The notes below the pieces were generated by a model that was given only the letters and a program-made list of their open reading frames with translations, did not search any database and had not been told where the DNA came from. Source: Candidatus Sericytochromatia bacterium (GTDB lineage Bacteria > Cyanobacteriota > Sericytochromatia > S15B-MN24 > VGJW01). From it: 64,000 nt of DNA. Below are positions 10,118-24,998 of this stretch, in pieces. Positions within the stretch are counted from its first letter, which is position 1, and every line of letters starts with the position of its first letter. Position numbers and translations under genes: made by a program. The stretch covers positions 19,947-83,946 of the forward strand of contig JAYKGV010000016.1 of the NCBI GenBank assembly GCA_035285595.1, given 5' to 3'.

Positions 10118-12063
10118 ATCCATCCTCATCTTTTCCCGAACCCGACCCCTACGCTTTGCTCGGGCTTGCTCGGGATGTTTCCGAGGACGAAGTCTGGGCT
10201 GTCTTCCACGCTCGGGCTGCTGCACTGGTTCGTGGTCGTTCCGGGGATGACTACACCCGGTTGCTCGATGCCTTGCAGATTCTGACCGATCCGCAACGTC
10301 GCGCGGCGCTTGACCGGCGTTTGGCGGGTGTCGAGGTCATGTCCCCGCCCGTCCAGGAGGCACCGCCGCCGCAGCAGCCGCGGGCGACCAGAACGCCCAC
10401 CTTGGTCTTGCGGAAGGGTCTGGACGAGATCATGGAGGAGGCACGTATCCGTGAGCTGGCCAAGAAGCTGGATCAGGAGGCATCCTCGGATACCCCGTCG
10501 CCGGGCCGGCTGGCGCTGAGGGCTTACCTAGCCTTCCGCCTGGACGACGAGTCCAAGGGATTTCAGTTGCTCAAGGCGGCTCTGGCCGCCGATCCCGCCT
10601 GTGCCTACGCCCATTACGCCTTGGCGGTTCATGTGCAGCAGCGCGGGCGTTCGGAAGATGCGTGGGGCATCCTGCAATGGGCCTTGCCGCATGTCGGTGG
10701 AGACAGGGATCTGTGGGTTCGCATCATGGATCTTGCCGCAAGTCTTGGTTGGCCGGACGGCCCGTTGCCCACCTTGATTGCGGCCATGGGCGAGTTCCCG
10801 GGGGATGTGCAGATGGCTGAGCTGCTCGTCCGACGCCTGCTGGCGCACGACCGAGGGACCGATGCCTTGGCACGGGTCAGGGAGGTCGTGACGGCCGTTC
10901 CCAAGGATCCCGGTGGGTGGCGTCTGCAGGGATGGGTGCAAGCTGCGCTCGGGGACGGGGCGGCGGCGGAGACCTCGTATCTGCGGGCACTGGAACTGGA
11001 GCCCCGGCACCCCGAAGCCCTGCGCGAGCTCTCCCGTCTATATGTCCAGGCGACGCACCCTGCAGCGGGTTCGTTGCTTGCCCGCGCCTTGGCTGTCCTG
11101 CCAGACGATGCCGGACTGTGGGGTTTGCAGGGCATTCACGCCCTGCAAAGCGGTGATCTTGGCGGCGCGGAACGTCATCTTTCACGCGCTCAAGCCCTGG
11201 CACCCACGTCTGCCGAGTTTGCCGGGCCGCTCGCCGAAACCCTCATTCGATTGGGCAAGGCGACGGAAGCCCTCGAACCGGCTCGGCGACTGGCCGCCAC
11301 GGACAAGGCTTCCGAGCGGGGGCCGTTCTTCGTCGGCGAGGCGTTGCACATGCTTGGACGTTTTGAGGAAGCCATCCCGTCTTACCTGCAAGCGCTCGAC
11401 CGCTGCATGGACCCCACGCCCGTCCTTTACGCCCTGGCCCGCTGTCACGCCGAGCTCGGCCGACCGGTGGAGGCTCTTGGATATCTGGAGAATGTCGCTG
11501 TGTCGGATCCGGAAGTGTGGGTCTTGCGGGCACGACTTCTGGGGGCGAGCGATCGGCAGGAGGAGGCCGGGGCCGCTTGGCAGGAGGTTCTGCGACAGGT
11601 TCCCGATCGGGCCGATGCCTTGCTGGGATTGGCGACCAGTCTTCTTTCCGGCGGAGACGAGACGGCGGCTTGGCCCTTGATCGACCGCTACATGGCGTCG
11701 TGGGGCCATGATCCTTCGGCTTTGGACGAGCTTGCAGCGATGTGGACCGGTCTCGGCCGCCATGATCTGGCCGTGGAAGCCTATCAAAGGGCCGTGGGCC
11801 GCAGCCCGGGGGAGCGGGCGCGTCACGAACGTCTTTGGGCGGCCATGGAACAGGCCGAGCAATGGCAGGCGTTGCATGCGACATTGACGCAGGCCATCCG
11901 CCTCTTCCCGGAAGATCCTGAGTTGGCCCTGCGTCTGGCGTCCTCGTATGAGCGGATGAACCTCGTCAGCGAGGCCGTGTTGGCGTACCGGCGCTACTTG
12001 CGCTTGGCTCCGCGATCGGCCGAGGCAAAATCCGTCCGAGCTCGTCTCAAGGCTCTTGAATGA
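10114..12063 (+). CDS. TPR-repeat protein with degenerate J-domain-like N-terminus, translationally coupled to the RND pump gene
   Basis: ATG overlaps the RND stop (ATGA). The N-terminus DPYALLGLARDVSEDEVWAVFHARAAAL...LLDALQILTDPQRRAALDRRL resembles J-domain helices I-IV without HPD. The remainder is TPR-like Ala/Leu repeats. Confidence 0.75.
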   Translation: MNPSSSFPEPDPYALLGLARDVSEDEVWAVFHARAAALVRGRSGDDYTRLLDALQILTDPQRRAALDRRLAGVEVMSPPVQEAPPPQQPRATRTPTLVLRKGLDEIMEEARIRELAKKLDQEASSDTPSPGRLALRAYLAFRLDDESKGFQLLKAALAADPACAYAHYALAVHVQQRGRSEDAWGILQWALPHVGGDRDLWVRIMDLAASLGWPDGPLPTLIAAMGEFPGDVQMAELLVRRLLAHDRGTDALARVREVVTAVPKDPGGWRLQGWVQAALGDGAAAETSYLRALELEPRHPEALRELSRLYVQATHPAAGSLLARALAVLPDDAGLWGLQGIHALQSGDLGGAERHLSRAQALAPTSAEFAGPLAETLIRLGKATEALEPARRLAATDKASERGPFFVGEALHMLGRFEEAIPSYLQALDRCMDPTPVLYALARCHAELGRPVEALGYLENVAVSDPEVWVLRARLLGASDRQEEAGAAWQEVLRQVPDRADALLGLATSLLSGGDETAAWPLIDRYMASWGHDPSALDELAAMWTGLGRHDLAVEAYQRAVGRSPGERARHERLWAAMEQAEQWQALHATLTQAIRLFPEDPELALRLASSYERMNLVSEAVLAYRRYLRLAPRSAEAKSVRARLKALE

Positions 12064-13102
12064 TCCGCCGAGCTTCGTTCGGCTGCAAGAGCGGCACACG
12101 TCGCATCGTGCGGCGCGCCAGATAACCGCGCGCCCGGGGGGCGGCCGAGTCTCCGGGTGCCAGTTCGAGAAAGCGGCGGAAGGCCTTGGCTGCCAGGTCT
12201 CCTTGGCCTTGACGATGAAGGGCCACCCCCAGGTTATAGTGTGCGGCGGCAAGTTCCGGGCGGGTCTTGAGCGCCTTGCGGCAAGCGGTCTCGGCATCCT
12301 TAGACTTGCCCAGCGAGATGAGCGCCAACGCCCGCCCGACCTCCGCGATGGCCGGATCCGCACCGGAACGACCCGCCGCCGTAAAGTTCTCGAGTGCGAT
12401 CGTGTGACGGCCTTCTTGCCAAGCCTTGGCTCCGTCCGCAAGGAGCTTGGCGGGTCCGGACAGGTGTGGGGCTCTTGGCGCCGGAGGCAAGGTGCGCCGC
12501 GGGCGCGTGCGTTCCCCGGGAACTGCCTCCGCCTCGGCCAAAAAGGGTGGTGTCAAGGTCGGAGCGGGATGCACCGGCCTTTCCGAACGGCTGAACAGCC
12601 CTACGATCACGAGGAGACCGCCAAGCAAAGGCAACAGCAGTGGCCAGGCCCCGGGGACGGTGGAGGGCGTCTGGGGTGGCGGGTGATTCGACCTACGGTC
12701 ACGCAGCGGCGTGACTTCGGGGGGCGAAGGAGCTGCTTCCGCAGTTTCGGGCTGCTGGAGGACCGGTGGAGGCGAAGGCGGCAGCGCGGAACTCCCTCGT
12801 GCTCGTCGCTCGGCTTCGTGGCGTTGCATTTCCCGCCGTCGGGCGAGCTCAGCGAGAATGTCCTGATCCGTCAGGCTTGCAGGCTGGGAACTCTGTGTGG
12901 CGGCCACTTCCGTGGGCGCCCCGAGGGTCGCGGCGATTTCAGCCAGCCTGGCCAGTGCAGCTTCGGCCCGTTCCCGGGTTTCCGGGGTCGTGGCCACGTC
13001 ACGTCGCCGTTGCCAGCGGACCCTTGCGGCATCCAAGGCTGTGCGAACCACTTCTTCACCGGCGGTTTCCGGCAGTCCCAGCAACTCGCGAGCGGTCATC
13101 AT
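12047..13102 (-). CDS. Bitopic membrane protein with J-like N-terminus, Pro-rich linker and C-terminal TPR repeats (last gene of minus-strand operon)
   Basis: Start ATGATGA overlaps the stop of the 13099-15168 gene. Features are MMTARELLGLPETAGEEVVRTALDAARVRWQ, the TM helix AWPLLLPLLGGLLVIVGLF, and C-terminal TPR-like AAHYNLGVALHRQGQGDLAAKAFRRFLELAP. Confidence 0.6.
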   Translation of the reverse strand: MMTARELLGLPETAGEEVVRTALDAARVRWQRRRDVATTPETRERAEAALARLAEIAATLGAPTEVAATQSSQPASLTDQDILAELARRREMQRHEAERRARGSSALPPSPPPVLQQPETAEAAPSPPEVTPLRDRRSNHPPPQTPSTVPGAWPLLLPLLGGLLVIVGLFSRSERPVHPAPTLTPPFLAEAEAVPGERTRPRRTLPPAPRAPHLSGPAKLLADGAKAWQEGRHTIALENFTAAGRSGADPAIAEVGRALALISLGKSKDAETACRKALKTRPELAAAHYNLGVALHRQGQGDLAAKAFRRFLELAPGDSAAPRARGYLARRTMRRVPLLQPNEARRIIQEP

Positions 13103-15168
13103 ACGGCCCACCACGTACCGTGGACGGGGCCACAGGTCTTGCAACGTCCCTTTGGCGCGGGCGCAAGGCATGAGGGGCAGGACGTTCTGGCTGCTTCGGA
13201 TTCGGCAAGGACCCGGGCCGTCCAGCCCAAGCGATCGAGGCGCGCCCACATGGTCGCGGCCCATGCGCCGGGAAGGCCCGGAGCCTGCAAGGCATGCAGG
13301 AGACGTGCCAGCTGTCTGGCCTGTTGACGGCCAGCTTCGCCTTCACGGTGCTGGAGGCCACGTTCGGCAAGGCTTCTCGTACGGGCAAGCCAGGCGGGGT
13401 TCGTCCTCAGTTGCTCTGGAAGCCGCCACGGTTCGCGGCCAGCGGCTACGGCGACCCAGCGTTCGTCCTCTCCGAGCAAGCGAAAGGCACCTCCCCGCCA
13501 GCAAAGACCCCCCAGCGCAAGCGCGATGAAGACCGTCACGGCCACCTCCGGGTCTACCCCTGGTGCAGGGGAGTCGGGCCGACCGCCCCACAGGAGCTGC
13601 CACCCAGGGCGCAAGGCCCTGCCGCCGTGGCCGGTGAAAGGATGTAGGTCGGGATCGTAGAGACCGCGGGCCGAGCGCGATCGTGAACGCTGCCCTGCCG
13701 GCGCCGTCGCGGACATGGCGGTGGCCCGCACGGCCCGTGCCGTCAAGGCCCCCATGAGGTCGGCGACCTGGGGCACCACGGGCAGGGCTTCCTCACCCAC
13801 GAGGCGCTGGACCCAGCCGGGACCTCCGGCGGCTTCCAGCAAGGCTTCCGGATGGTGGGCGGCAAGCCAGACAAGGGCATCTTCCACGGCGTGCTCGTGC
13901 TCGTGTTCCATGCCGGGCAGGGCTTCTCGGGCCAGGACAGGACCAAGGTGTGCCAGGCGTCTCCCGGCTTCCCGTTCAACCAAGGTGTGCCAGGTCCCTA
14001 GCGTCCGTATCATCCGTGCGACCTGATCCTGCAGGTCCTCGAGACACACCCGGCGGATCTTCATGGTCTGAAGTTCCGACAGGTCTCGCCACCAAGGGGT
14101 GATCCGACTCGTCACGCGAAGGACCTCTTCGGCCGCGAGAGGGGCGGGCAGGCCCAGAAAACGGCTGCGTCCGGGCTTCAGGCTTTCGAGGGCTTGCGAT
14201 ACCTCCCCTTCCGACCTGTCGAGGGCCTCGCGCAAGGCGGCTTCTCGTTCGAGGGACGCCTGGTGTCTCTCTATCAAGCCTGCGTGCAGGTGCTCCAGCA
14301 CACTCAGCCAGTGCGCCACGATGCCTGCTCCAGGACGCCCTTGGCCCGAGGACCATAACTCCGCCTGCAGCCCTTCTCTCAAGGTGTCCACTTGTGCACG
14401 CCTCAAGGAGTCGGGTGGCGACCATCCGGGCTCGAGGACGCTCCGTCGGACCTCCAACTCGGCAAGCAGCCACGATCGCAGACTTTCCCCCCGGACGGGT
14501 CCGGCCTCCTGCATCGCGCGGGCAAGGGTCTCGAGGTCGGCCTCGGCGGACTCTGGAACATCCACTCGGGCCCAGAGCCCAGCAGGAAAGCTGACCTCAT
14601 CCGTCGGGTTCTGTTCGAGCAAGTCTTTGAGCAGACGGCTCTCGAGGATGGCCTGGACGCGTTCTCGGTCGTGCCCGGAGATCACGCCCCGCCAGGAACC
14701 GCAAGGGACCGGGACCTCCGGGGTTGCGAGCAGGTCTCGGAGCAACAGGCTCGCGGCGGCGGAGACATCGGGCGTCCTTCTGCCCGCTTTTTCGCCTTCT
14801 CCGACCCAGGTCGAGGCCACGTCACGGGAGGCCTCGGTTGCCCAATCCCGGAGCATGTCGTGCAGGACGGCCTCTGGCGCCGAAGAGCACGATACGAGAT
14901 GCACCACGCCTTCCCCGACCGAGAGGATGCGTCTCCAATAGGCGTCCTCCCTGGCCAGGGTGCCTTGCAGGCCCGAGTCGCCGGGAACGTGGGTGACCCA
15001 GGGACCGGCCCACCAAGGACCATCAGGGTTCGTGCCCAGACGTTGTACGGGTCCGGGGAAGTCGAAGTCGACCCCCTCTCCGGTCAGCGCGACGAAGCGC
15101 GGCCGCGGAACCAGACCGGGCGTGACGGCCATGGCCAGCAAGGCGTCGAGGATACGCAGGACTTGCAT
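13099..15168 (-). CDS. Hypothetical protein (~690 aa) with one TM helix and C-terminal C4 zinc ribbon
   Basis: Ends ...CPSCLAPAPKGRCKTCGPVHGTWWAV* (CxxC-N9-CxxC). TM helix VAVTVFIALALGGLCW. Start chosen at the ATG at 15168, preceded by aaggaagg; a GTG at 15216 is an alternative. No family recognised. Confidence 0.5.
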   Translation of the reverse strand: MQVLRILDALLAMAVTPGLVPRPRFVALTGEGVDFDFPGPVQRLGTNPDGPWWAGPWVTHVPGDSGLQGTLAREDAYWRRILSVGEGVVHLVSCSSAPEAVLHDMLRDWATEASRDVASTWVGEGEKAGRRTPDVSAAASLLLRDLLATPEVPVPCGSWRGVISGHDRERVQAILESRLLKDLLEQNPTDEVSFPAGLWARVDVPESAEADLETLARAMQEAGPVRGESLRSWLLAELEVRRSVLEPGWSPPDSLRRAQVDTLREGLQAELWSSGQGRPGAGIVAHWLSVLEHLHAGLIERHQASLEREAALREALDRSEGEVSQALESLKPGRSRFLGLPAPLAAEEVLRVTSRITPWWRDLSELQTMKIRRVCLEDLQDQVARMIRTLGTWHTLVEREAGRRLAHLGPVLAREALPGMEHEHEHAVEDALVWLAAHHPEALLEAAGGPGWVQRLVGEEALPVVPQVADLMGALTARAVRATAMSATAPAGQRSRSRSARGLYDPDLHPFTGHGGRALRPGWQLLWGGRPDSPAPGVDPEVAVTVFIALALGGLCWRGGAFRLLGEDERWVAVAAGREPWRLPEQLRTNPAWLARTRSLAERGLQHREGEAGRQQARQLARLLHALQAPGLPGAWAATMWARLDRLGWTARVLAESEAARTSCPSCLAPAPKGRCKTCGPVHGTWWAV

Positions 15169-15197
15169 GCCTTCCTTTCCCAGGGCCACCAGCAAGG

Positions 15198-16529
15198 TCA
15201 CGGCGATTTTCTCCACCAACCACGGGCCTGGGCTCGAGCAAACCGCACCAGCCGTGCCCTGGCCTCGGAGCCGTCCTTTCCCAAGTGCGCTTCGCGCAGG
15301 TGCTGGCCCTCCCCCCAGGTCAGCCACCAGCCGTCGGCACGTTCTTCCCGCATGACGCTCGTAGCCTGCCATAGAGCCGCTCCCGGATCGGATGCACGGG
15401 GTCGCGTCGCGAGGGGCAAGCTGGGAACGACACGTTCCGGAGAGACCAGGGAAGGCCAGTTCCAGCCTCTTGCGGCCACGAGGTGCGCTTGGGACCAGGG
15501 AACGAACCATCGCCCGAGATGAACACCCCCATGTCGACGAAGAGGCGAAGGAGCCGAGGTCTCTTGGTGGCCACGAGGGGGTGGCGTGATGGGCATGCGA
15601 TCGCAGGCCTCCCAAGCCTCCTCGATCAGTCGCCAAGGTCCGGTCGCAGGCGGCAGGTACTTTCTCCTGAGCTGCCAGCCTTCCTCCCGGAGCCGTGCGT
15701 CCAGAGGGCGTTTCGCGAGGTCACGCGCCCGCACCAGTTGCAGCAGCACGCTTCGATCGTGCTGCTGCGCCTCATCGGCCAGTTCGGCCAAGGCCAGCGG
15801 TAGTCCTTCCTCATCGAGTTCGGGCCGAGGATCTTCTTCGCCCGGCAGGTCACCGACGATGCGAGACAGAGCGCGGGCCATCGCCTCGGTTCCTTCCGTC
15901 CGCCGTACGCCCTCCAGGTGAGCACGCAGGCTGTCCGCCATCCAAGCGAGAGGCCACCGGGCCGCGCGCCACGCTCGCAGCGCGGCCTCTCTTGTCGGCA
16001 ACGGTTCCTTCGGCCAAGGCCAAAGTGCGGTGCGCAGCAACTCTTCGACCTCCGGGGCAAGTTCGGCCTCTGAATCGAAGATCCTCCACGGACCGGGCAA
16101 GCCCGGGAGGCCCTCAGACCCGGGGTGGTGAATCTCGGGACCGGTTGAAGTGCCCACGGGGTGCGGGCGCAGACTGAGCGGCAGAGACGTCGGTGGCAGC
16201 TCGTCCTGTGCCCACAGGCACAGGGCGGTCTCAAGGATCAGCTCCGGGGGATGTCCCTTCTCGTCCACCAACTGATACACGGCAGGACCCGCCAAGCTGC
16301 GTCCCCGGGAGACCACGGCCAACACGGCAAGTGTCTGCGGAGCTTCCCGCAGTCGGAGATTCAGGGCACGTGGCGCCACCTCATCACAAGCCAGAAGGAC
16401 CACGGTTGTCGGTCCGGGGGAGTCGGGCCATCCCCGGAAGGCTGTCGTGCCGACCGGCAGCCGCGGCCTTGCCCGTTCGAGGGCCGCCTCGGCGCTTCGT
16501 CCCAACAGATGGACTTCCGGTGGCCTCAT
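15198..16529 (-). CDS. Hypothetical protein (443 aa)
   Basis: ATG at 16529 overlaps the stop of the upstream small membrane gene (ATGA). The reading frame is consistent over 1.3 kb; no motif recognised. Confidence 0.5.
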   Translation of the reverse strand: MRPPEVHLLGRSAEAALERARPRLPVGTTAFRGWPDSPGPTTVVLLACDEVAPRALNLRLREAPQTLAVLAVVSRGRSLAGPAVYQLVDEKGHPPELILETALCLWAQDELPPTSLPLSLRPHPVGTSTGPEIHHPGSEGLPGLPGPWRIFDSEAELAPEVEELLRTALWPWPKEPLPTREAALRAWRAARWPLAWMADSLRAHLEGVRRTEGTEAMARALSRIVGDLPGEEDPRPELDEEGLPLALAELADEAQQHDRSVLLQLVRARDLAKRPLDARLREEGWQLRRKYLPPATGPWRLIEEAWEACDRMPITPPPRGHQETSAPSPLRRHGGVHLGRWFVPWSQAHLVAARGWNWPSLVSPERVVPSLPLATRPRASDPGAALWQATSVMREERADGWWLTWGEGQHLREAHLGKDGSEARARLVRFARAQARGWWRKSP

Positions 16530-16804
16530 CCCCGTATCCATGCCGCGAACCACAGGCTTGTCCCTGCGACCGTGAAGCCCGTGGCCAACATGACTTGGGT
16601 CAGAGGAGCATGTCCCGGACAGAACGCCACGATGGCACCCAGGACCCCGACAAGACAACTTGCGGCGAGTCCCGCAAGGGCCGCCTCGAGCGGGCGCTCG
16701 GGAGCCTTGGACAGCAAGGCCCGCGGCAGGCCCCAGGCTACCCAGACCGCCGTGGCGAGGGTCGCGGCCGCGAGGGTGAGACGGGTGATCAGGACGTCAT
16801 CCAC
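16526..16804 (-). CDS. Small integral membrane protein (~92 aa), hypothetical
   Basis: GTG start overlaps the GNAT stop (GTGGATGA). Three predicted hydrophobic helices (LAAATLATAVWVAWGL; LAGLAASCLVGVLGAIVAF; VMLATGFTVAGTSLWFAAW). Confidence 0.4.
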   Translation of the reverse strand: MDDVLITRLTLAAATLATAVWVAWGLPRALLSKAPERPLEAALAGLAASCLVGVLGAIVAFCPGHAPLTQVMLATGFTVAGTSLWFAAWIRG

Positions 16805-17291
16805 GTTCGCGGGCCTCCTGGTCCTCTTCGAGGACCAACTCCACCGTGGCCTCCTTGAAGCCGGTTCGCCGGTACAGCGCACGCGCAGGAGTATTGTCGA
16901 CGTGCGTGAAAAGCCGCAAGCGCTTCATGCCCGACCTTGCGGCCAGCGTGCGGGCATCTTCGAGCAGCAGATGGCCGATGCCTTGGCCGCGATCCTCGGG
17001 ACGCACGGCCAGGACGACGATGAAAAGCTCCGCGAGACCCGTCACCGGATGATGGGAAGGCAAGGACCAGCAGAAGCCGGCCACCCTGCCGTCGCGCCGC
17101 TGGAACACCCGCACGTGTCCACCTTGTTCCGCGTACCATGCCCATTGGCTTTCGATTCGTTCTCGCACTTCACTGCGGGTCAATGAGGCGAGGTCGGGAT
17201 AACTGGACCGCACTGCCTGCTCGAAGAGATCCTTCAAGAGGGGCCCGTCCTGTGGGCCGGCCGGGCGTACGGTTCCTGCATCAACGTTCAC
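16797..17291 (-). CDS. GNAT family N-acetyltransferase
   Basis: LFIVVLAVRPEDRGQGIGHLLLEDARTLAARSGMKRLRLFTHVDNTPARALYRRTGF shows acetyl-CoA-binding motif A (R/Q-x-x-G-x-G/A) and motif B. GTG start lies 11 nt inside the upstream gene's 3' end. Confidence 0.8.
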   Translation of the reverse strand: MNVDAGTVRPAGPQDGPLLKDLFEQAVRSSYPDLASLTRSEVRERIESQWAWYAEQGGHVRVFQRRDGRVAGFCWSLPSHHPVTGLAELFIVVLAVRPEDRGQGIGHLLLEDARTLAARSGMKRLRLFTHVDNTPARALYRRTGFKEATVELVLEEDQEARERG

Positions 17292-20200
17292 GGGGCTTCA
17301 ATACTCCGGAAAGCCAGGTCCTATAGGGGCGTTCGCGATCCGGCGCCTGGTCCTTTCGCCAAGGTGCCCACGGCCGTTGCCACCGCACGCCACCTACAAG
17401 GTAGCGGTACCGACCGGGATGCTCCAAAGGCCATGGGTCCACAAGGTAGCGGACCTTGGGCTGATCCAGGTGTCCCACGACGCTCCAGTGCGCGTCCTGG
17501 TCCGAAATCGAGGCACGCAGCACGATGACTTGGTCGAGGGGTTCCTGCCAGCTCAGCAGCGTGCCTGCGGGGGCTTCGGCGAGCTTGACCTCCAGCTTTG
17601 CGGCTCGAGGTTGAGGCCAAGGCGGCAACACGTCTCTTGCGGCCCGCAACAGGGTGGGAGCCGTGACAAGGGCCGCGGCCACCGCGAGCCCCGTGAGCGT
17701 GCCGCGAACCCTGTGGAGCTGCTGCCGAAGCACCGGCAGATGATTCAGGGACGGGTTCAGCGAGGGCAGATCCAACAGAGGGGTCAGGGGTGCGAGGCCC
17801 TGGGGTGTCCGTAGCATGAAGCGACATTCACCCCGTTCTGGTGCATGGACAAGGGTCAAGGGACGATGCCCCTGGGGCACGAGAACAGGCTGGACCAGCA
17901 AGGCCCGGTCGCGTTGGCGACGCAATCCTCGGTCCTGCCACCAACGCACAGGATGGCGCCACGCGCTCGATGCGGGCCGCGAGGGTGCGGGCGGCATCCC
18001 TGCCATGCCGGGAGGGGCATCGCGTCGGACCGCCAGATGGGCATATGCCGCTTCATCCTCGTCCGCCTCCTCCAGCAAAGCCAAGCCTTCCTCACTGTCG
18101 AGCACGGGTGCTTCGGATGGAGGTTCCGTACGCACAGCCGCTTCGATAGGACCTTCGTAACCCTCCTCGGCCAGTAGCTTGAGCAGAAGTTCATCCTGAT
18201 CGTCGTCCATGCCAGGGAAGGTGAACGCAGGGGTGTCTGCCGCGGGAACTTCGTGGGGCAGGGGATCGAGGTCGTCGAGCCGCCGAGCCGCCTGTCGAGA
18301 GGGGCCAGGCAGCATCCAGCCGATCAGGCCCAGCTCGACCAGCCGTTCGAGATCGCCCGGGCCGAGACGTTGGATGGGGACCACGGCCATGATGCGGTGC
18401 ACGGTGATGCCTTCGGGGCCCCAGGCCGTGTCGCCCAGCAAGGCTGCTTCGCCTTGCAAGGGCCATTCAAGGTCTACCGGCAAGCTGATGCGATGGGCCT
18501 CCCCAAGCGTGTCGAGGCTGCGGAACCGTGAAAAAGCTGCCTCTGGCAGGTTGACCAAGGTTTCCATAGTGGTCTCGGGGGGGGCATCCGTCGTCTCCCG
18601 GACCTGGACAGCCTCTTGTGGCCCTGTCAGTAGCTCCGCATCCTGCTCGCTTTCCGGCAACGGAGGAGGGGCAGGGGTCGGTGCCCGGACAGGTTCGAAG
18701 ACCTCGTCCGGAGCCGAGCCCAGGACCGCCCGGAGCGCATCCAGATCCTCGAGGTCGCTCCAAGGCTCTTCTGGAATCTCCTGGGTGAGGGCGGCGGCCG
18801 CGGCGGGTGACGCAGGCGGCTGGGACTGCCCATCGGACGGTTGGACCTGCAGCGGTTCCAGCGGTCCGGTACCGTACCTTCGGAAAAGTGACTCCAGCTC
18901 GGGATCCTGATCGAGGTGAGCCACGGATTCGAGCAGAGCCTCGTCGATTTCGGCTTCCTGCCATGCATCCGTTTCCCTGTCAGGATCCGGATCCGGTCCG
19001 GAAGGCTCCTCGACGGCCGGCTGCGGGTCCGGTGCCACGTCCGCTCTCGGTGGCCAGTCTTCCTCGAGGCTCCTTTCAATCTCGTGGGGCTCGTCGGGGG
19101 CGGCCTCCGATATCAAGTCCTGATCGAAGGGTTCAAGCCTGTCCTTCGACTCTTGCTCCAGGTCTTCCGCGTCTTCAGGGCTTTCTTCGCTTTCGAGCCC
19201 GCTTTCGTCCTCGCCACGAAGCAGCGATGGCTCGAGCTCTTCGAGGCTCGGAAAATCCATTTCCCCGGCCAAGTACCGTACCAGCAAATCCTCCGGATCT
19301 TCGAGGCGCTCCAGCAGGTCCAACTGAGCGGCTTCGAGGACGAACACAGGGGCGTCGGGCAGGGGGAGGATTACGAAGGTATCTGGTTCGAGTCCCGATG
19401 GCTGCTCCAGGGGGCCGGCGAGAGCGGGATCCTCTTCTTCGGGCCGTTCGGGCACCCTCGTCTCTCGTGCGAACGCCTCTGGCCGTTGCGGGACCGGTGG
19501 GATCGGATCCGCAAGGTTCTGAGCTTGCGTCGGAGTCGCCACGGGAGAGACGGGATCTGCCAGATTGCCCACGATCTCCTCGAGGGTCACAGATGGCGGC
19601 TCGGGGGATGGAGCCTCGCTCTGAGGCTGAATTCTTGGCGTCAGCCCGCCCAGCCTGACCGCTTCCTCAATCTTCTCCGGGTCGTCCAGCGGCAGCCAGC
19701 CTTCCGGGGTGTCGACCGGGGGCCACGCATCGTCGGAGTCCTTGGAACGCCATCTGAAGCCCAGGCCGGGCAGATGGAAGGTGGGCGGCAGGCTACCCTC
19801 CGCAAGGAGGTCACCGGTTTGGGACTTTTCCGGCCTTTCCTCGGTACGTTTCCCGATGTTGTACCGCGCGGCCATCTTGTCCAGGCGATCGGTTCGGGAA
19901 CCGACCCCACCGCTCTTGGACCAGCCGTGGCCCGTGAAGGATTCCGGGGGGCGTTGTAGCGCGACAGGCTGTACCTTGGGCACGACCAGTCGGTTGCCGG
20001 CTTGTTGGCGGGCCTCGGCGAGCTGGGCATCGTAGGTTCTGCGCAGCTGCTCGTCCAACAGGAGCACGCCGGCCTCGTCGAGCAGCTCCATGGCAGATCG
20101 GGCGTCGTGCTGCAAGGATGGGTGATCGAGCCGACTTTGCCAGAAACTGCGATAGTTGGCGATGGCAGCGGAAAGATCGGCAATCGAGCCCTTTTCGGGC

Positions 20201-20643
20201 AATCCCAGCAGGGTGTAGTAATCCGGGACCTCGGCATTGCTCCCGAGTGGGGCGGTACCCGCCGTGAGGCCAACGATGGCCTCCTTGATGACGGCAGGAT
20301 CCCTGCTGGGGAGACTAACGACCCGCACACCCTCCGTGGCCATGCGCTCGATGAATCCGCGGGAGTCATTGAGGGGGGCCGTGGCTGGTGTTCCAGACAG
20401 CAGGCAGAGATGGGTCGAGGCCAGCAATCGGGGAGCCTCGGGTCCGAAGGCCACGCGAATCCCCCGTACGGTTTCATTCAGGACATCTTCCGTGCCGGCT
20501 ACGATGACCCCGTCCCAGGTCCGGCCGGAGCCGCAAGCATCGAGGAAGGCCTGCAGATTGCCGGGTTCGTGACGTAGGGCCTCGAATTGGCCTGGGGGCC
20601 AGGACACGGTCCGGGGCAATGCATCGAGTAAAAGCCAGGCCAT
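17281..20643 (-). CDS. Large (1120 aa) acidic/Pro-rich bitopic membrane protein with N-terminal globular domain, J-domain-like module and C-terminal extracytoplasmic domain
   Basis: A J-like module (DYYTLLGLPEKGSIADLSAAIANYRSFWQSRLDHPSL...LLDEQLRRTYDAQL) lies at 20028-20223. It is followed by ~650 aa of low-complexity D/E/P-rich sequence, the TM helix LTGLAVAAALVTAPTLL, and a ~130-aa C-terminal domain ending ...GRYRYLVGGVRW. Confidence 0.65.
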   Translation of the reverse strand: MAWLLLDALPRTVSWPPGQFEALRHEPGNLQAFLDACGSGRTWDGVIVAGTEDVLNETVRGIRVAFGPEAPRLLASTHLCLLSGTPATAPLNDSRGFIERMATEGVRVVSLPSRDPAVIKEAIVGLTAGTAPLGSNAEVPDYYTLLGLPEKGSIADLSAAIANYRSFWQSRLDHPSLQHDARSAMELLDEAGVLLLDEQLRRTYDAQLAEARQQAGNRLVVPKVQPVALQRPPESFTGHGWSKSGGVGSRTDRLDKMAARYNIGKRTEERPEKSQTGDLLAEGSLPPTFHLPGLGFRWRSKDSDDAWPPVDTPEGWLPLDDPEKIEEAVRLGGLTPRIQPQSEAPSPEPPSVTLEEIVGNLADPVSPVATPTQAQNLADPIPPVPQRPEAFARETRVPERPEEEDPALAGPLEQPSGLEPDTFVILPLPDAPVFVLEAAQLDLLERLEDPEDLLVRYLAGEMDFPSLEELEPSLLRGEDESGLESEESPEDAEDLEQESKDRLEPFDQDLISEAAPDEPHEIERSLEEDWPPRADVAPDPQPAVEEPSGPDPDPDRETDAWQEAEIDEALLESVAHLDQDPELESLFRRYGTGPLEPLQVQPSDGQSQPPASPAAAAALTQEIPEEPWSDLEDLDALRAVLGSAPDEVFEPVRAPTPAPPPLPESEQDAELLTGPQEAVQVRETTDAPPETTMETLVNLPEAAFSRFRSLDTLGEAHRISLPVDLEWPLQGEAALLGDTAWGPEGITVHRIMAVVPIQRLGPGDLERLVELGLIGWMLPGPSRQAARRLDDLDPLPHEVPAADTPAFTFPGMDDDQDELLLKLLAEEGYEGPIEAAVRTEPPSEAPVLDSEEGLALLEEADEDEAAYAHLAVRRDAPPGMAGMPPAPSRPASSAWRHPVRWWQDRGLRRQRDRALLVQPVLVPQGHRPLTLVHAPERGECRFMLRTPQGLAPLTPLLDLPSLNPSLNHLPVLRQQLHRVRGTLTGLAVAAALVTAPTLLRAARDVLPPWPQPRAAKLEVKLAEAPAGTLLSWQEPLDQVIVLRASISDQDAHWSVVGHLDQPKVRYLVDPWPLEHPGRYRYLVGGVRWQRPWAPWRKDQAPDRERPYRTWLSGVLKPRER

Positions 20644-20646
20644 AGG

Positions 20647-22512
20647 TCAGCGCCCCCAGGCATCCCAGGGCGGTCGTGCCCTCAGGCCGACTGCTGCCGT
20701 GTCCCAGGGTTGTCCCAGCAATCCGTGGCGGTCTTGCGGCAGGATGAGGTAGCGATAGATGCCTTCGGTTTCGACGTGGTCCTGGAGCGACCGGCGGGCG
20801 TCCAAGCGTCGCTCGCCTCCGAGCAGCACCGTCGGTCCCGGAGGATCCAGCGCCTCACGCAACACCCACAGCCCGTGGACGTCGGGATCCGGGCGCCGTT
20901 GCCCAAGGGAGATTGTCTGACGGTCCAGCGAAAGCCCGAGCGTGCCTTGAATGGGACGAAAGGCTCCGGTTCCCGGCCAATCCACGGCGACGGCCCGGGA
21001 CCAGTGCAGGGGTTGTCCGTCCGGGTCAAGCGCCGCCAGGCGATACCACAACCGGGTCGTGGGTGGGTCAGCTCCCAGCCTGGGGCGAGGCAGGGCCATC
21101 CGGTCGGTACCGGCGGGGATCATGTGCAGGCGCCGGCGATCCCCGGGCCTGCACTCGGCCCGGGTACAGGCATACAAGGCGAGGGCTTCTTGCCGGGCCT
21201 CCCAGCGAAGCAAGGGGTCCGTGCCCTCGCGCCGGAGAGCGAACGTGCCGGGACGCTCCATCCACAGGAGTGCAAGCCATCCAAGCAAAGCAAGGATCAC
21301 GCCTGTTCGGCGATCAACAGGAGCCAGCACCTCGGTGAACCCACGTGCGATGACCCGAGGCCATGGCTTGCGGGCTCCCTTGATCAAGCCTCCCGTGGCG
21401 GGATCGAAGATCGGCTCCGAGCGCCCGGGCCGGCGGGGCATCCGTCCCACCGACGGGCGTCGGAACATCACCGCTTCCGCACCCACGTCATCGACCACGA
21501 GGCAGGTCTGCCAGAGGTGAGGCATCAGGGCATCGTGCAAGCCTCCGTCTTCCCGTACAAGACCGCCGCCTGGCCGCAGGACGTAGGTCCCTACCGGCAC
21601 CATGGCCGTACCCGGGTGATGCGTGCCGGTATGCAGCAGGCCTTGCATGACCCGACGGGCCTCGGTGTGGTCGCCAGGTGGTCTGTCCCCCTCGTCTGCG
21701 AGCGGAACGGCCGCCAGGATCGTGACGTCGATCCGGCGTCGACCGTGGGTGTCGCCGGCCAAGGCCACGCGCCCGAGCAGCAGGCCACGCCGGGTGACGA
21801 CCGGAGGCCGGGGGTCGAGGGAGCGTCTGAGGCTGGTTGGCATGCACAGACGCAAGCGGGCATCCGAGCCAGGGACGAGCCACAGGTCGTCTGCCATGCG
21901 ACCGAGACCGACAGGGGCAAGGGGCCAGTGGGTCGTCGGGTCCGTCTCGGGGGCATCGGGTGCTTCGAGCGTCGCCCACGAGTCATCCTCGAGGGTGTCC
22001 GGATCAAGGGGAGAAGAAGTCGGCAAGCCTTCGCGGATGGGATGCTCGTCCCCGATGCCCAAGGTGTCGAGCGCCTCGCCGAGTGTTTCGTAGAGTCCCG
22101 CCAGATCAGCCACCGATGAGCCGTCGTCCGGCTCATCGGTGGCGACCGACCGTGGGGGTGGAGCTTCGGAAAAGGGCGTGTCCACCCGGTCCTGGATGGG
22201 CGAGGGCGGCAGGGCGCTGGTCGGAGTGGATGCCTGCGCCGGTGCGGGGGATTCATCCGTAGCAAGCCCCTCGCCATCCAGGACGAACCGGGAAAGCGCA
22301 GGGATGGCCGCTCCACCTTCCGGAAAGGCATCCTCGAGCGAGGACAACAGGCCCAGTCCGCCCTCAATGTCCGTGCCCCGGGCCTCCTCGTCGGTGAAGG
22401 CGGCCAGCAGGGCCTTACGTTCTTCGGCCGTCGTGCGAGCGGCTTCGAGCCCTCCGCCGGATTCGGGTGACGACGGGCCTGCCGCATCGTGGGAAGAACC
22501 AGCCGGAACCAT
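20647..22512 (-). CDS. Bitopic membrane protein (621 aa) with acidic disordered N-terminus, central globular domain, TM helix and C-terminal extracytoplasmic domain (first gene of operon)
   Basis: ATG at 22512 lies 53 bp from the divergent leuS start. TM helix [14 protein letters not shown]. The C-terminal domain ends ...[12 protein letters not shown], similar to the C-terminus of the downstream 1120-aa protein. Confidence 0.6.
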
Positions 22513-22565
22513 GGCCCTATTCTACCCTCGCGGGCAGGCTGGTACGATGGAGAGCTACGCCGGAG

Positions 22566-24998
22566 GCCCCATCCATGCAGGAACGTTACGATCCCCACGT
22601 CATCGAGCCGCGCTGGCAGGCCTACTGGGAGCAGCACGAGACCTTCCGGGTCACCGAGGATCCCGCGCGGCCGAAGTACTACGTCCTCGACATGTTCCCT
22701 TATCCCTCGGGAGCCGGGTTGCATGTCGGTCATCCCGAGGGTTACACCGCCACGGACATCGTGGCGCGCTACAAGCGGATGAAGGGCTTCAACGTGCTTC
22801 ATCCCATGGGATGGGATGCCTTCGGGTTGCCGGCTGAGCAGCACGCGCTGGCGACCGGCGAGCATCCGCGCGAGATCACCCGTCGCAACATCGACACCTT
22901 CAAGCGCCAGATCAAGTCCTTGGGATTTTCCTATGACTGGTCTCGTGAGTTCAGCACGACCGATCCGGGCTACTACCGCTGGACCCAGTGGATCTTCCTG
23001 AAGCTGGTCGAGCGCGGACTGGCCTATGTGGCGGAGGTGCCGGTCAACTGGTGTCCGGCTCTTGGCACGGTCCTCGCCAATGAGGAGGTCATCGACGGCA
23101 AGAGCGAGCGGGGTGGTCATCCCGTCGTGCGCAAGCCCATGCGCCAGTGGATGCTGCGTATCACGGCTTACGCCGATCGGCTCCTGGAGGACCTGTCGGA
23201 TCTGGACTGGCCCGAAAGCGTACTCGACATGCAGCGTCACTGGATTGGGCGTTCGGAAGGGGCCGAGATCACGTTTGGGATCAAGGGCCATGACTTGACC
23301 TTCGAGGTCTTCACCAGCCGTCCGGACACCCTGTTCGGGGCAACTTACTGCGTTCTGGCGCCCGAGCATCCCTTGGTGGCCCAGGTGACCACCGGGGCGT
23401 GTCGCGAGGCGGTCCTGACCTATCAGGCCGAGGCCGCCCGCAAGAATGACCTCGATCGCACGGATCTGGCGACTGAAAAGACCGGAGTCTTCACGGGAGC
23501 ATATGCCGTCAACCCGGCCAATGGAAAGACGATCCCGATTTGGATTGCCGACTATGTGCTGGCTTCCTATGGCACGGGAGCCGTGATGGCCGTCCCGGCC
23601 CATGACGTCCGGGACTGGGAGTTTTCGCGGGTGATGGGCTTGCCCGTGATGCGGGTCGTCGAGGGGGGAGACCTGGCTGAATCCGCATGGACGGGAGACG
23701 GCGCTCACGTGGCGTCCGGCTTCCTCGATGGCTTGGATGTCGCATCGGCCAAGCGCAGGATGATCGAGTGGCTCGAGCAGGAAGGATGTGGCCGCCGCAA
23801 GGTGAATTACCGCCTGCGAGACTGGCTGTTCAGCAGGCAGCGTTACTGGGGTGAGCCCATTCCCGTCGTCCACCATGGGGATGGCTCCTGGTCGGCGCTG
23901 GCCCCCGAAGCCTTGCCCCTGCGGCTGCCCGACCTCGAGGAGATCCGTCCGAGCGGTACGGGCGAAAGTCCTCTCGCTCTGGCGAAGGAGTGGGTGGAAA
24001 CCGAGGTCGAAGGGCAAGCGGTCCGACGCGAGACCAACACGATGCCCCAGTGGGCAGGGTCGTGCTGGTATTACCTGCGCTTCATGGATCCCCACAATGC
24101 CGAAGCGCCTTTCGGCAAGGACAAGGAAGCCTATTGGGGCCCCGTCGACCTCTATGTCGGGGGCGCGGAGCACGCGGTACTGCACCTGCTTTACGCCCGA
24201 TTCTGGCACAAGGTCCTGTACGACCTGGGCTTGGTCTCGACCAAGGAGCCTTTCAAGCGTTTGTTCAACCAAGGGATGATTCTGGGTGAGAATGGCGAGA
24301 AAATGTCCAAGTCACGGGGCAACGTCGTCAACCCGGATGACGTCATCAAGGCCTACGGCGCGGATACCTTGCGCATCTACGAGATGTTCATGGGCCCGCT
24401 CGAGGCCTCCAAGCCGTGGAACACCCAGAATGTCGCGGGTTCCCATCGCTTCCTCGAGCGGGTTTGGAAATTGGTCGTCGGACCCGACGGCCTGTTGAGT
24501 CCTGCCGTTCGCGACGTGGATCCGCTCGGGGCCCGGGATCTCGAGCGTGCCCTGCATAAAGCCATCGCCAAGGTCGGCGGAGATATCGAGGCCTTGCGGA
24601 TGAACACGGCCATCAGCGCCTTGATGATCTTCCTGAACGAGGCCTCGCGCGCCGAGGTTCTGCCGCGAGCGACCCTCGAGCGCTTCGTGCTTCTGGTCTC
24701 TCCTTTCGCGCCGCACCTGGCCGAGGAACTGTGGCAGCGGCTCGGACACCCGAGGAGTCTGGCGCATGAGCCCTGGCCGATCTATGACCCCGCGATGACG
24801 GTCGACGACATCATCGAGCTGGCCATCCAAGTCAACGGCAAGGTGCGTGGGCGTATCGAGGTTCCGGCCGATGCCCCCGTCGAGGTGGTCGAGAAGGCGG
24901 CCCTCGAGGATGCGGATACCCGGACTTGGTGCGAAGGGAAGACCATCGTCAAGGTCGTGGTCGTTCCCGGGCGCCTCGTCAACGTCGTCGTGCGCTGA
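22566..24998 (+). CDS. leuS: Leucine--tRNA ligase
   Basis: [26 protein letters not shown]...[55 protein letters not shown] with HIGH (HVGH) and KMSKS (KMSKSRGN) motifs. RBS ggagg before the ATG. Confidence 0.95.

What the first reader, a model, noticed from the sequence alone, without database searches (positions are those of the whole stretch)
17281..17700. Paralogous C-terminal extracytoplasmic domains (…YRYL… terminal strands) on the two largest membrane proteins
Both the 1120-aa protein (17281-20643) and the 621-aa protein (20647-22512) have an acidic cytoplasmic region, one TM helix and a ~130-200-aa C-terminal domain. The two C-terminal domains share segments (…HWSVVGHLDQPKVRYLVDPWPLEHPGRYRYLVGG versus …[16 protein letters not shown]…[12 protein letters not shown]). 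This suggests a duplicated periplasmic/extracellular interaction module (possibly an Ig/FN3-like beta-sandwich) displayed by two adjacent genes.
Basis: seen in the sequence. Interest (0 to 1): 0.5.

Follow-up and report, generated by a model that had tools for sequence, protein, structure and literature searches.

The report
Paired MPN–TM–FN3 membrane proteins
Two adjacent genes of a non-photosynthetic cyanobacterial relative encode anciently duplicated single-pass membrane proteins, each with a degenerate protease-like domain inside the cell and a fibronectin-III-like domain outside; the pair is uncharacterised, but the shared "YRYL" motif that drew attention is only weak evidence for the duplication.

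Summary
Both ORFs are real genes, conserved and adjacent in Sericytochromatia/Tanganyikabacteria MAGs. Each has an acidic N-terminal part, one hydrophobic helix and a C-terminal domain (121 and 202 aa).

The quoted similarity is only partly real:
- Pairwise BLASTP is not significant (E = 1.2).
- The "HWS" match pairs non-equivalent strands of different domains.
- G-x-YRYL is conserved in both families. It aligns by profile-profile comparison at P = 1e-4 over 31 columns; 0 of 120 permutations reached that score.

The stronger paralogy signal is cytoplasmic. Distant homologues show that both families have an MPN/JAB-like domain just before the helix (P = 2.9e-5, or 1.7e-9 with a d1-less master). 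The JAMM residues are present in some 621-aa-family relatives and lost in this window.

The gene order JAB-TM-FN3, then J-like-MPN-like-TM-FN3, then GNAT is conserved in every lineage found. I read it as an ancient paralogous pair, probably an MPN heterodimer scaffold. Function is untested.

The parts
20647..22512 (-). P2, 621 aa: acidic N-extension, degenerate MPN/JAB domain, TM helix, two beta-rich ectodomains
   Evidence: ORF and translation. Five homologues at 51-100% identity, all from Sericytochromatia. Distant homologues P0009-P0013 and P0038.
21928..22512 (-). P2 aa 1-195: acidic, proline-rich N-terminal extension with short conserved motifs; found only in the long-form lineage
   Evidence: 20.5% D+E, net charge -32. 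Absent from P0009-P0013.
21385..21900 (-). P2 aa ~205-376: MPN/JAB-like domain with all JAMM catalytic residues replaced (MPN-minus)
   Evidence: Family profile hits Rpn11-like, RPN11, CSN5, Abraxas and AMSH in the PDB (best E = 1.6e-5). Relatives hit Pfam Prok-JAB at 20.7-24.1 bits against a cut-off of 25. Motif columns: VGWYHSHH..SPSVD in relatives, [12 protein letters not shown] in the window.
21256..21306 (-). P2 aa 403-419: single hydrophobic (TM) helix
   Evidence: Kyte-Doolittle 1.78 over 17 aa, at a conserved position. AF2 predicts a helix at 401-418.
20968..21255 (-). P2 aa 420-515: membrane-proximal beta-rich domain d1; contains the 'HWS' segment (503-505)
   Evidence: Strands at pLDDT 50-70 in the AF2 model. 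Absent in P0012 and P0013. Marginal profile hit to the PelI FN3 domain, E = 0.014. No similarity to the P1 C-domain, P = 0.076.
20650..20967 (-). P2 aa 516-621: distal beta-rich domain d2 with G-I-YRYL (aa 584-589 = 20746-20763); the counterpart of the P1 C-domain
   Evidence: Present in all 11 family members. hhalign against the P1 C-domain gives P = 1e-4. The fold itself was not modelled with confidence (pLDDT below 40).
17281..20643 (-). P1, 1120 aa: alpha/beta N-domain, J-like domain, long acidic linker, MPN-like remnant, TM helix, FN3 ectodomain
   Evidence: ORF and translation. Homologues P0006-P0008. Shorter relatives P0015, P0030-32 and P0040.
20029..20223 (-). P1 aa 141-205: J-like domain without the HPD motif
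   Evidence: Pfam DnaJ matched over its full length, positions 1-63 of 63, below the cut-off, in 5 of 5 members tested. Family profile hits J domains in the PDB, E = 6.8e-8. The HPD position reads Q-S-R in the window, from the alignment read by eye.
17944..19638 (-). P1 aa 336-900: acidic, proline-rich, largely lineage-specific insertion
   Evidence: aa 336-700 is 25% D+E with net charge -74; aa 801-880 is 27.5% D+E. Absent from the 544-774 aa relatives.
17758..17919 (-). P1 aa 909-962: remnant (C-terminal half) of the juxtamembrane MPN-like domain
   Evidence: Aligns with the MPN-like domain of short P1 relatives; the module 910-1087 matches at probability 97.8%, P = 9e-13. That domain in the short relatives matches the P2-family JAB domain at P = 2.9e-5 and 1.7e-9. 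Beta-hairpin 928-946 in the AF2 model.
17647..17703 (-). P1 aa 981-999: single hydrophobic (TM) helix
   Evidence: Kyte-Doolittle 1.64 over 19 aa and 1.90 over 17 aa. AF2 predicts a helix at 970-1002.
17302..17604 (-). P1 aa 1014-1114: FN3-fold ectodomain; G-R-YRYL (aa 1077-1082 = 17398-17415) lies at the start of the F strand
16797..17291 (-). GNAT acetyltransferase (164 aa) overlapping the P1 stop by 11 nt; the conserved third gene of the triad
   Evidence: Pfam Acetyltransf_1, E = 5.5e-16. The nearest NCBIfam models, MshD and RimI, score below their cut-offs. It follows the P1-type gene wherever the contig extends past it.

Best explanation
P2 and P1 are ancient paralogs that share a three-part module: a cytoplasmic MPN/JAB-like domain, one transmembrane helix (N-in, C-out), and an FN3-like ectodomain whose F strand carries G-x-YRYL.

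P2-type proteins consist of this module, with or without a second, membrane-proximal beta domain (d1). P1-type proteins carry an alpha/beta N-domain and a J-like domain (no HPD) in front of it.

The two genes abut or overlap and are followed by a GNAT gene in every lineage found.

Inferred mechanism: the two proteins are made together and insert side by side. They pair through their MPN-like domains under the membrane, as eukaryotic MPN+/MPN- pairs do. They display three Ig/FN3-like domains outside the membrane as a binding surface.

In this window the JAMM zinc and catalytic residues of P2 are all gone, and the MPN-like domain of P1 is reduced to a remnant. Both proteins have also gained long acidic disordered segments. 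This version can therefore only act as a non-catalytic, envelope-spanning scaffold or tether, not as a protease.

Shown: gene reality, domain order, the FN3 fold of the P1 tail (as a model), the MPN and J assignments, loss of the catalytic residues, and conserved synteny.

Inferred: the topology (from sequence rules), the fold of the P2 ectodomains, heterodimerisation, and function.
For: - Both genes are conserved and adjacent in all loci recovered. Gaps between them are 0-5 nt, which suggests co-translation.
- P1 C-domain versus P2 d2: hhalign P = 1e-4, with 0 of 120 permutations reaching the score. This is higher than either domain scores against two textbook FN3 sequences (15.5 and 13.2 against 29.9). 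The low-stringency alignment is collinear over about 91 columns.
- d2 is the domain present in all P2-type proteins, and it sits right after the helix in the d1-less members, as in P1.
- MPN-like domain of short P1 relatives versus the P2-family JAB domain: P = 2.9e-5 over 107 columns, with 0 of 100 permutations reaching the score. With a d1-less master sequence, P = 1.7e-9 at probability 96%.
- The P2 family profile finds Rpn11, CSN5, Abraxas and AMSH in the PDB and Pfam Prok-JAB.
- The P1 family profile finds J domains.
- Topology: K+R in the 15 residues before versus after the helix is 31 vs 15 in the P2 family and 33 vs 16 in the P1 family.
- MPN+ with MPN- partners is the established rule for Rpn11-Rpn8, CSN5-CSN6 and eIF3f-eIF3h (PMC9313428).
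Against: - Window P1 versus window P2 shows nothing significant by BLASTP or by shallow profiles.
- The C-domain signal covers only 31 columns, centred on a motif close to the generic FN3 pattern P-G-x-x-Y-x-hydrophobic-x-V. In another hhalign set-up it falls to E = 0.71.
- The P2 ectodomain folds are not established: the model has pLDDT below 40 in d2 and the best Foldseek E is 0.02.
- The MPN homology is shown for the short P1 relatives. In the window's own P1 only the C-terminal half of that domain is alignable.
- There is no direct evidence that the two proteins bind each other, and none for any function.
- The families are tiny (9 and 11 sequences), so the profiles are shallow.
Confidence: 0.55

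Rival explanations
1. The ectodomains are independent. Both proteins happen to end in common FN3/Ig-like sandwiches acquired separately, and G-x-YRYL reflects the fold's F-strand consensus plus chance. Any paralogy concerns only the MPN-like domain, or nothing at all.
For: - BLASTP E = 1.2.
- HMMs of one tail do not find the other protein.
- The profile hit is 31 columns at probability 57% and drops to E = 0.71 as a secondary alignment.
- FN3 domains are very common modules in bacterial surface proteins (general knowledge).
Against: - The motif is conserved in both families across deep divergence and is unique to these two ORFs in the window.
- The score exceeds all 120 permutations and the scores against two generic FN3 sequences.
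- Domain order and helix position are the same in both proteins, and an independently supported homologous MPN-like domain sits upstream.
Confidence: 0.3
2. The C-terminal domains are not extracytoplasmic. Either the hydrophobic segment is a buried or peripheral helix, or the orientation is N-out/C-in, so the FN3-like domains work in the cytoplasm.
For: - Hydrophobicity is modest in the window proteins: Kyte-Doolittle 1.28-1.64 over 19 residues, with only about 15 clearly apolar residues in P2.
- Around the helix of the window proteins K+R is balanced, 3 vs 3.
- No dedicated topology predictor was available.
Against: - The segment is present at the same place in all 20 members, with Kyte-Doolittle up to 2.8.
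- The family-wide K+R bias is about 2:1 toward the N-terminal side.
- AF2 models it as a long isolated helix.
- The N-terminal parts carry J and MPN domains, are strongly acidic and have no signal peptide, so they must stay inside the cell.
Confidence: 0.08
3. Recent local duplication. As the first reader implied, a C-terminal interaction module was copied between two neighbouring genes within this lineage.
For: The genes are adjacent and share the YRYL motif.
Against: - Identity between the two tails is at noise level.
- Both gene types, each with its own version of the domain, already coexist in all divergent lineages, whose orthologues are only 23-27% identical to the window proteins.
Confidence: 0.02

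Closest known systems
MPN+/MPN- (JAMM) pairs: Rpn11-Rpn8, CSN5-CSN6, BRCC36-Abraxas, eIF3h-eIF3f
   Same: - The P2-family profile matches Rpn11-like, RPN11, CSN5, Abraxas and AMSH chains.
- Some P2 relatives keep E...HSH...S..D.
- The partner gene encodes a homologous domain without catalytic residues, as in the MPN- scaffolding partners (PMC9313428).
   Different: - The proteins are bacterial, single-pass membrane-anchored and carry FN3-like ectodomains.
- No ubiquitin-like, E1 or E2 gene was found in the flanks read.
- Ser-to-Asp spacing is one residue longer than Sx2D in the best-preserved members.
- In this window both partners are catalytically dead.
- Pairing has not been tested.
Prokaryotic JAB domain proteins (Pfam PF14464 Prok-JAB)
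   Same: Four of six short P2 relatives match the model over the core at E of about 4e-5 to 4e-4.
   Different: - Scores of 20.7-24.1 bits lie just under the gathering cut-off of 25.
- The window protein gives no hit at all.
- I know of no described member with this TM plus FN3 architecture; that statement rests on my own knowledge and is not an exhaustive search.
ZipN/Ftn2/ARC6 (cyanobacterial and plastid division tether)
   Same: - Like P1, it has an N-terminal J-like domain of uncertain Hsp70 dependence, a long cytoplasmic region, one TM helix near the C-terminus, a cytoplasmic N-terminus and a short extracytoplasmic tail.
- It belongs to the cyanobacterial lineage (PMC6391411).
   Different: - P1 has an extra alpha/beta domain before the J-like domain, an MPN-like domain before the helix and an FN3 tail.
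- No Pfam model other than a weak DnaJ hit (plus a below-threshold PucR hit, E 0.028, on the N-terminal fragment) matches P1. The ARC6-type C-terminal domain (own knowledge) is therefore not detected.
- The only homology detected is the generic J domain.
Fibronectin type III domains of bacterial extracellular proteins (for example the N-terminal FN3 of pectate lyases PelI/Pel3)
   Same: - The P2 profile touches the same PelI domain at E = 0.014.
   Different: - Sequence identity is 8-20%.
- No Pfam fn3 hit even at E up to 10.
- The Tanganyika-type P1 has a 15-residue F-G insertion.

Membership tests
FN3 fold (P1 C-terminal domain) | Seven-strand beta sandwich (A-B-E / C-C'-F-G) that superposes on solved FN3 domains | tested here: met
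   [not shown]
FN3 family by sequence (Pfam fn3, PF00041), P1 and P2 tails | A match to the family HMM | tested here: not met
   No Pfam hit for either tail at E up to 10. PDB profile searches give only E = 0.16 (monobody) for P1 and nothing related for d2.
FN3/Ig-like fold (P2 domains d1 and d2) | A beta-sandwich model that superposes on FN3/Ig domains | tested here: inconclusive
   The AF2 model from 5 sequences has pLDDT 50-70 in d1 and below 40 in d2. Foldseek hits lean toward FnIII receptors, but the best E is 0.02.
Paralogy of P1 C-domain and P2 d2 | Significant sequence or profile similarity extending over the domain | tested here: inconclusive
   BLASTP E = 1.2. hhalign P = 1e-4 at probability 57%, 31 of about 105 columns. 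0 of 120 permutations reach the score. The global alignment is collinear but only E = 0.004 at probability 3%.
MPN/JAB domain (P2 family) | Sequence match to the MPN core | tested here: met
   PDB profile search finds Rpn11-like at 1.6e-5 and RPN11, CSN5, Abraxas and AMSH below that. Pfam Prok-JAB and JAB match four relatives, just under the cut-offs. The window P2 is joined to those relatives by HMMER at E = 3e-29 to 6e-9.
MPN+ (active JAMM metalloprotease), window P2 | The motif E-x(n)-H-x-H-x7-S-x2-D (PMC9313428) | tested here: not met
   In the aligned columns E is replaced by R, HSHH by VLRP, and S..D by VRE-D. The same holds in P0002-P0005. Relatives P0038, P0009 and P0011 keep E, HxH, S and D, with S-x3-D spacing.
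MPN-like domain (P1 family) | Homology of the juxtamembrane domain to MPN | tested here: met
   Met for the short relatives: hhalign against the P2-family JAB domain gives P = 2.9e-5 and P = 1.7e-9 at probability 96%. For the window's own P1 only aa 909-962 align, so membership there rests on orthology.
J domain (P1) | Four-helix J-domain sequence signature | tested here: met
   The family profile hits DNAJB8, DNAJC3, DNAJA3 and DnaJ at E = 7e-8 to 1e-4. Pfam DnaJ is matched over positions 1-63 of 63 in 5 of 5 members, below the cut-off.
Functional J domain (Hsp70 co-chaperone) | HPD tripeptide between helices II and III | tested here: not met
   In the alignment the HPD position is occupied by non-conserved residues: QSR in the window, and variable residues in the others. 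It is therefore a J-like domain, in the sense of the DNAJD class (PMC6391411).
ZipN/Ftn2/ARC6 | Homology beyond the J-like domain, i.e. the central region and the ARC6-type C-terminal domain | tested here: not met
   No Pfam or NCBIfam model other than DnaJ-type ones (apart from a below-threshold PucR hit, E 0.028, on the N-terminal fragment) matches P1 or its relatives. No ZipN sequence was available for a direct comparison.
MPN+/MPN- heterodimer | Physical pairing of the two MPN domains | not testable with these tools
   Only indirect support: abutting genes in every locus, matching architecture, and parallel gain of acidic inserts in one lineage.
Known anti-phage defence systems | A match to PADLOC models | tested here: not met
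   No hits for P1, P2, the GNAT or their short relatives.

The most novel reading that the evidence does not exclude
The pair is a bacterial, membrane-embedded counterpart of the eukaryotic MPN+/MPN- heterodimers. An (ancestrally active) JAMM subunit and a catalytically dead MPN subunit, each with its own TM helix and FN3 ectodomain, would form a trans-envelope complex together with a J-like domain and a dedicated GNAT. The lineage in this window would have converted it into a fully non-catalytic scaffold by losing the zinc site and adding hundreds of acidic disordered residues and four extra operon genes. One possible role is a ZipN-like envelope or division tether in non-photosynthetic cyanobacterial relatives.
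Probability: 0.25. Interest if true: 0.6.

Novelty: new variant of a known kind. Interest (0 to 1): 0.4.

Why it matters
The finding as stated, two FN3-like tails sharing a motif, is ordinary.

What lies under it is less ordinary. A rare gene triad is restricted, as far as the searches reached, to Sericytochromatia-type MAGs: only 6 representatives at E up to 0.001 among 1.84 billion proteins. Two paralogous single-pass proteins combine an MPN/JAB domain inside the cell with FN3 domains outside it.

If they pair, this would be a prokaryotic, membrane-bound example of the MPN+/MPN- partnership that organises the proteasome lid, the COP9 signalosome and BRISC in eukaryotes. The family would also record, step by step, an enzyme turning into a pseudoenzyme scaffold.

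It also gives an annotation for seven 'hypothetical' genes in a poorly known sister group of the Cyanobacteria.

Tried and rejected
- Whole-protein BLASTP and shallow profile comparison of the two window families gave nothing.
- The P1 tail against P2 d1, and P2 d1 against d2, showed no similarity.
- My early idea was that P1 aa 731-757 (GEAALLGD..VHRIMAVVP) is the N-half of an MPN domain matching P2 243-272. hhalign did not support it. MAFFT places the short relatives' N-half against different parts of long P1 in different runs, so it is left open.
- The AF2 model of full P2 from 5 sequences was too poor to use (mean pLDDT 38), and its Foldseek hits are not reliable.
- The third word-based homologue search, run with the 10-sequence alignment, failed to recover even the known distant members.
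- The genome-collection and metagenome scans added only one new lineage, L016.
- Sequence-only PDB searches with the three ectodomain profiles gave nothing significant.
- PADLOC and NCBIfam gave no system-level assignment.
- A recent-duplication scenario was rejected on the distribution of the two gene types.
- An active-protease role for the window's P2 was rejected on the motif columns.
Full report
**1. What is at the coordinates**

The window is about 66% GC. On the minus strand, ORF 20647-22512 (621 aa, here P2) is followed 3 nt later by ORF 17281-20643 (1120 aa, here P1). The finding's range, 17281-17700, is P1 aa 982-1120. leuS diverges upstream of P2.

Codon-position GC does not discriminate frames well in this genome. 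Homology does:
- P2 has five relatives at 51-100% identity.
- P1 has three relatives at 50-100% identity.
- All are 'hypothetical protein' entries from Candidatus Sericytochromatia MAGs. One locus is named Candidatus Tanganyikabacteria, a freshwater clade within Sericytochromatia (PMC8245535).
- The two genes are adjacent in every contig that is long enough.

**2. The observation**

The described layout is correct.
- Acidic stretches: P1 aa 336-700 is 25% D+E with net charge -74. P2 aa 1-195 is 20.5% D+E with net charge -32.
- Each protein has one hydrophobic segment (P1 981-999, P2 403-419).
- The tails are 121 and 202 aa.

The claimed shared segments fare less well.
- BLASTP of the tails gives E = 1.2 for an 11/40 match around YRYL, and E = 1.9 for the HW(S) match.
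- The two whole-family profiles give nothing.
- 'Two largest membrane proteins' is inaccurate: an AcrB-type transporter of 1100 aa lies at 6815-10117.

**3. Reaching distant relatives**

A full HMMER search of 1.84 billion representatives with the P2 alignment found only six proteins at E up to 0.001. Five are short relatives of 328-454 aa, P0009-P0013. A metagenome scan added P0038. They show three things.

(a) The region before the helix is an MPN/JAB domain.
- Four relatives hit Pfam Prok-JAB at 20.7-24.1 bits against a cut-off of 25.
- The family profile hits Rpn11-like, RPN11, CSN5, Abraxas and AMSH chains in the PDB, best E = 1.6e-5.
- P0038, P0009 and P0011 carry E...HSH...S..D. That is the JAMM motif of PMC9313428 with one extra residue before the Asp.
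- In the window's P2 and its close relatives every one of these residues is replaced. The window protein is MPN-minus.

(b) The tail consists of two modules. Two relatives lack the membrane-proximal one (d1). All keep the distal one (d2), which ends in G-x-YRYL..P.D..G..G.PWDSAA.

**4. The partner gene is always there**

Every relative whose contig continues downstream is followed, at a gap of 0-5 nt, by a P1-type gene. Wherever the contig runs on past that gene, a GNAT gene comes next.

The short P1-type proteins (544-774 aa) have the following, in order:
- the same alpha/beta N-domain as P1;
- a J-like domain;
- a conserved LPGLG.R.R...WPP motif;
- a compact domain before a TM helix;
- a roughly 100-aa tail with ..W..(B strand)..V.VYR..D..AHW..D..P...PG.YRYL.

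The J assignment is solid. The family profile hits PDB J domains at E = 6.8e-8, and Pfam DnaJ is matched over its full length in 5 of 5 members. The HPD tripeptide is absent, so it is a J-like domain.

**5. Fold of the P1 tail**

With an 8-sequence alignment of P1 aa 905-1120 (A7), AlphaFold gave pLDDT 75-89 for aa 1014-1114. It also gave a long helix at 970-1002 and seven strands.
- Foldseek against the PDB put FN3 domains on top: the PelI N-domain at 9e-4, then monobodies, integrin beta4, LAR and cytokine receptors.
- YRYLVGGVR (1079-1087) is the F strand. WSVVGHL (1053-1059) is strand C'.

So the 'HWS' of P1 (C' strand of its only domain) and that of P2 (end of d1) are not equivalent positions.

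The P2 model, built from 5 sequences, was poor: mean pLDDT 38, d1 at 50-70 and d2 below 40. Its weak Foldseek hits lean toward FnIII receptors. I treat the P2 ectodomain folds as probable, not shown.

**6. Are the tails paralogous?**

With the enlarged families, the P1 C-domain compares as follows.

| Comparison | Result |
|---|---|
| P1-C vs P2 d2, local | P = 1e-4, probability 57%, 31 columns (E-F motif plus G strand) |
| P1-C vs P2 d2, low stringency | extends collinearly over about 91 columns |
| P1-C vs P2 d2, global mode | E = 0.004 |
| Column permutations of P1-C | never exceeded 16.0, against 29.9 observed (0 of 120) |
| Reversed P1-C profile | 11.1 |
| P1-C vs P2 d1 | P = 0.076 |
| P2 d1 vs d2 | P = 0.7 |
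| P1-C vs d2 as a secondary alignment in a whole-module comparison | E = 0.71 |
| Plain HMMs of either tail against the other protein | no hit |

The tail similarity is therefore real but thin.

**7. The stronger signal**

The juxtamembrane domain of the short P1 relatives aligns with the P2-family JAB domain over 107 columns at P = 2.9e-5 and probability 73.5%. The alignment matches all core elements: G.L.G..., the strand after it, [LV]G[WFY]Y, and ..L.VD......FF. Permutations reached 21.2 at most, against 38.7 observed.

With a d1-less master sequence the result is P = 1.7e-9 at probability 96.3% over 114 columns. P1-type proteins have no JAMM residues.

In the window's long P1 only the C-terminal half of this domain (aa 909-962) is still alignable. 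The stretch 910-1087 matches the short-relative module at probability 97.8%.

Three things together make ancient duplication of the whole module the best reading:
- the same order, MPN-like domain, then helix, then FN3-like domain;
- two separate domain-level signals;
- the positional equivalence of d2 with the P1 tail in the d1-less proteins.

The duplication predates the split of all lineages found, because orthologues are only 23-27% identical across them.

**8. Topology**

No predictor was available. The evidence is indirect.
- A hydrophobic 17-mer (Kyte-Doolittle 1.5-2.8) sits at the same place in all 20 proteins.
- K+R in the 15 residues before versus after it is 31 vs 15 in the P2 family and 33 vs 16 in the P1 family.
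- Neither N-terminus looks like a signal peptide.
- The N-terminal parts carry cytoplasmic-type domains and large net negative charge.

N-in/C-out is the likely orientation. In the window proteins themselves the charge bias is flat (3 vs 3), so this rests on the family.

**9. Context and mechanism**

In the window the operon runs as follows.

| Gene | Window coordinates |
|---|---|
| P2 | 20647-22512 |
| P1 | 17281-20643 |
| GNAT | 16797-17291 |
| 92-aa gene | 16529-16804 |
| ~445-aa gene | ~15201-16529 |
| ~699-aa gene | ~13105-15201 |
| TM + TPR protein | 12047-~13100 |

The last four genes occur only in the long-form lineage. That is the same lineage in which P2 lost its JAMM residues and gained a 195-aa acidic head, and in which P1 gained about 450 acidic residues.

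The GNAT is nearest to the RimI and MshD models but scores below their cut-offs. There are no PADLOC hits.

The mechanism I commit to has these steps: co-translated, N-in/C-out paralogs that pair through their MPN-like domains and display FN3-like domains outside the membrane. In this lineage they would be a purely structural scaffold or tether. This is an inference. Its model is the MPN+/MPN- partnerships of eukaryotes (PMC9313428). It also resembles ZipN/ARC6, which is laid out as J-like domain, long linker, TM helix and short outside tail (PMC6391411). Nothing here tests binding or function.

**10. Verdict**

It is right about the fold and probably right about location and paralogy. It is wrong about HWS, about the domain count in P2, and about where the evidence for paralogy lies.
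- The building blocks are all known families. The combination, and the paired arrangement, appear to be undescribed.
- Novelty: a new variant of a known kind. Interest is moderate.

Noticed in passing
window 12047-16804 (-): Four more abutting genes follow the GNAT: a 92-aa gene, a ~445-aa gene, a ~699-aa gene, and a 405-aa protein with a TM segment and C-terminal TPRs. They are conserved at 47-68% identity in the other long-form MAGs but absent after the GNAT in the short-form loci. The 445- and 699-aa products have no Pfam hit.
   Followed up: partly
window 10114-12063 (+) and 12047-13264 (-): Two convergent TPR proteins overlap by 17 nt. Both start with a sequence that looks by eye like the first helix of a J domain (DPYALLGLARDVSEDEV; ARELLGLPETAGEEV). 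With P1, that would make three J-like proteins in 10 kb. This was not tested with a profile.
   Followed up: no
P2-family alignment A9, motif columns: The JAMM motif decays stepwise across the family. It is complete in P0038, P0009 and P0011. P0010 has E replaced by N. P0013 has lost the first His. P0012 has lost HxH and carries a 13-residue insert. In the window lineage everything is lost. Catalysis therefore seems dispensable for whatever the family does.
   Followed up: partly
window 19696-19773 (-), P1 aa 291-316: A short linear motif, LPGLG-x-R-(x)-R ... WPP ... P-(E/K)-(G/D/N)-W, is conserved in 8 of the 9 P1-type proteins (P0030 keeps only the P-G of the LPGLG stretch) despite very different linker lengths. 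It is a candidate docking site.
   Followed up: no
window ~22500-24998 (+); L009 5895-8390; L016 11467-13878: leuS lies next to the triad in several deeply divergent lineages. It is divergent upstream of P2 in the window and downstream of the GNAT on the same strand in L009. An ORF of similar size (803 aa) follows in L016 but was not identified. This may be retained synteny or a functional link.
   Followed up: no
window 21151-21168 (-), P2 aa 449-454: Domain d1 of the long-form P2 proteins has a Cys pair (C449 and C454 in the window; YGCLRADCR in relatives; P0005 keeps only the first Cys) that the short relatives lack. This would fit a disulfide in an extracytoplasmic domain.
   Followed up: no
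window 6815-10117 (+): An AcrB/AcrD/AcrF-type RND transporter of 1100 aa (Pfam E = 1e-252). It is a larger membrane protein than P2.
   Followed up: yes
window 45103-47334 (+): A 743-aa protein with a T2SSE (PilB/GspE-type) ATPase domain and weak N-terminal ParA/MinD-like (CbiA) hits.
   Followed up: no
method note: The word-indexed homologue search, run with the 10-sequence alignment, did not return relatives that were themselves rows of the query alignment. The full HMMER scan had found them. Negative results from the word-indexed tool are weak for this family.
   Followed up: yes
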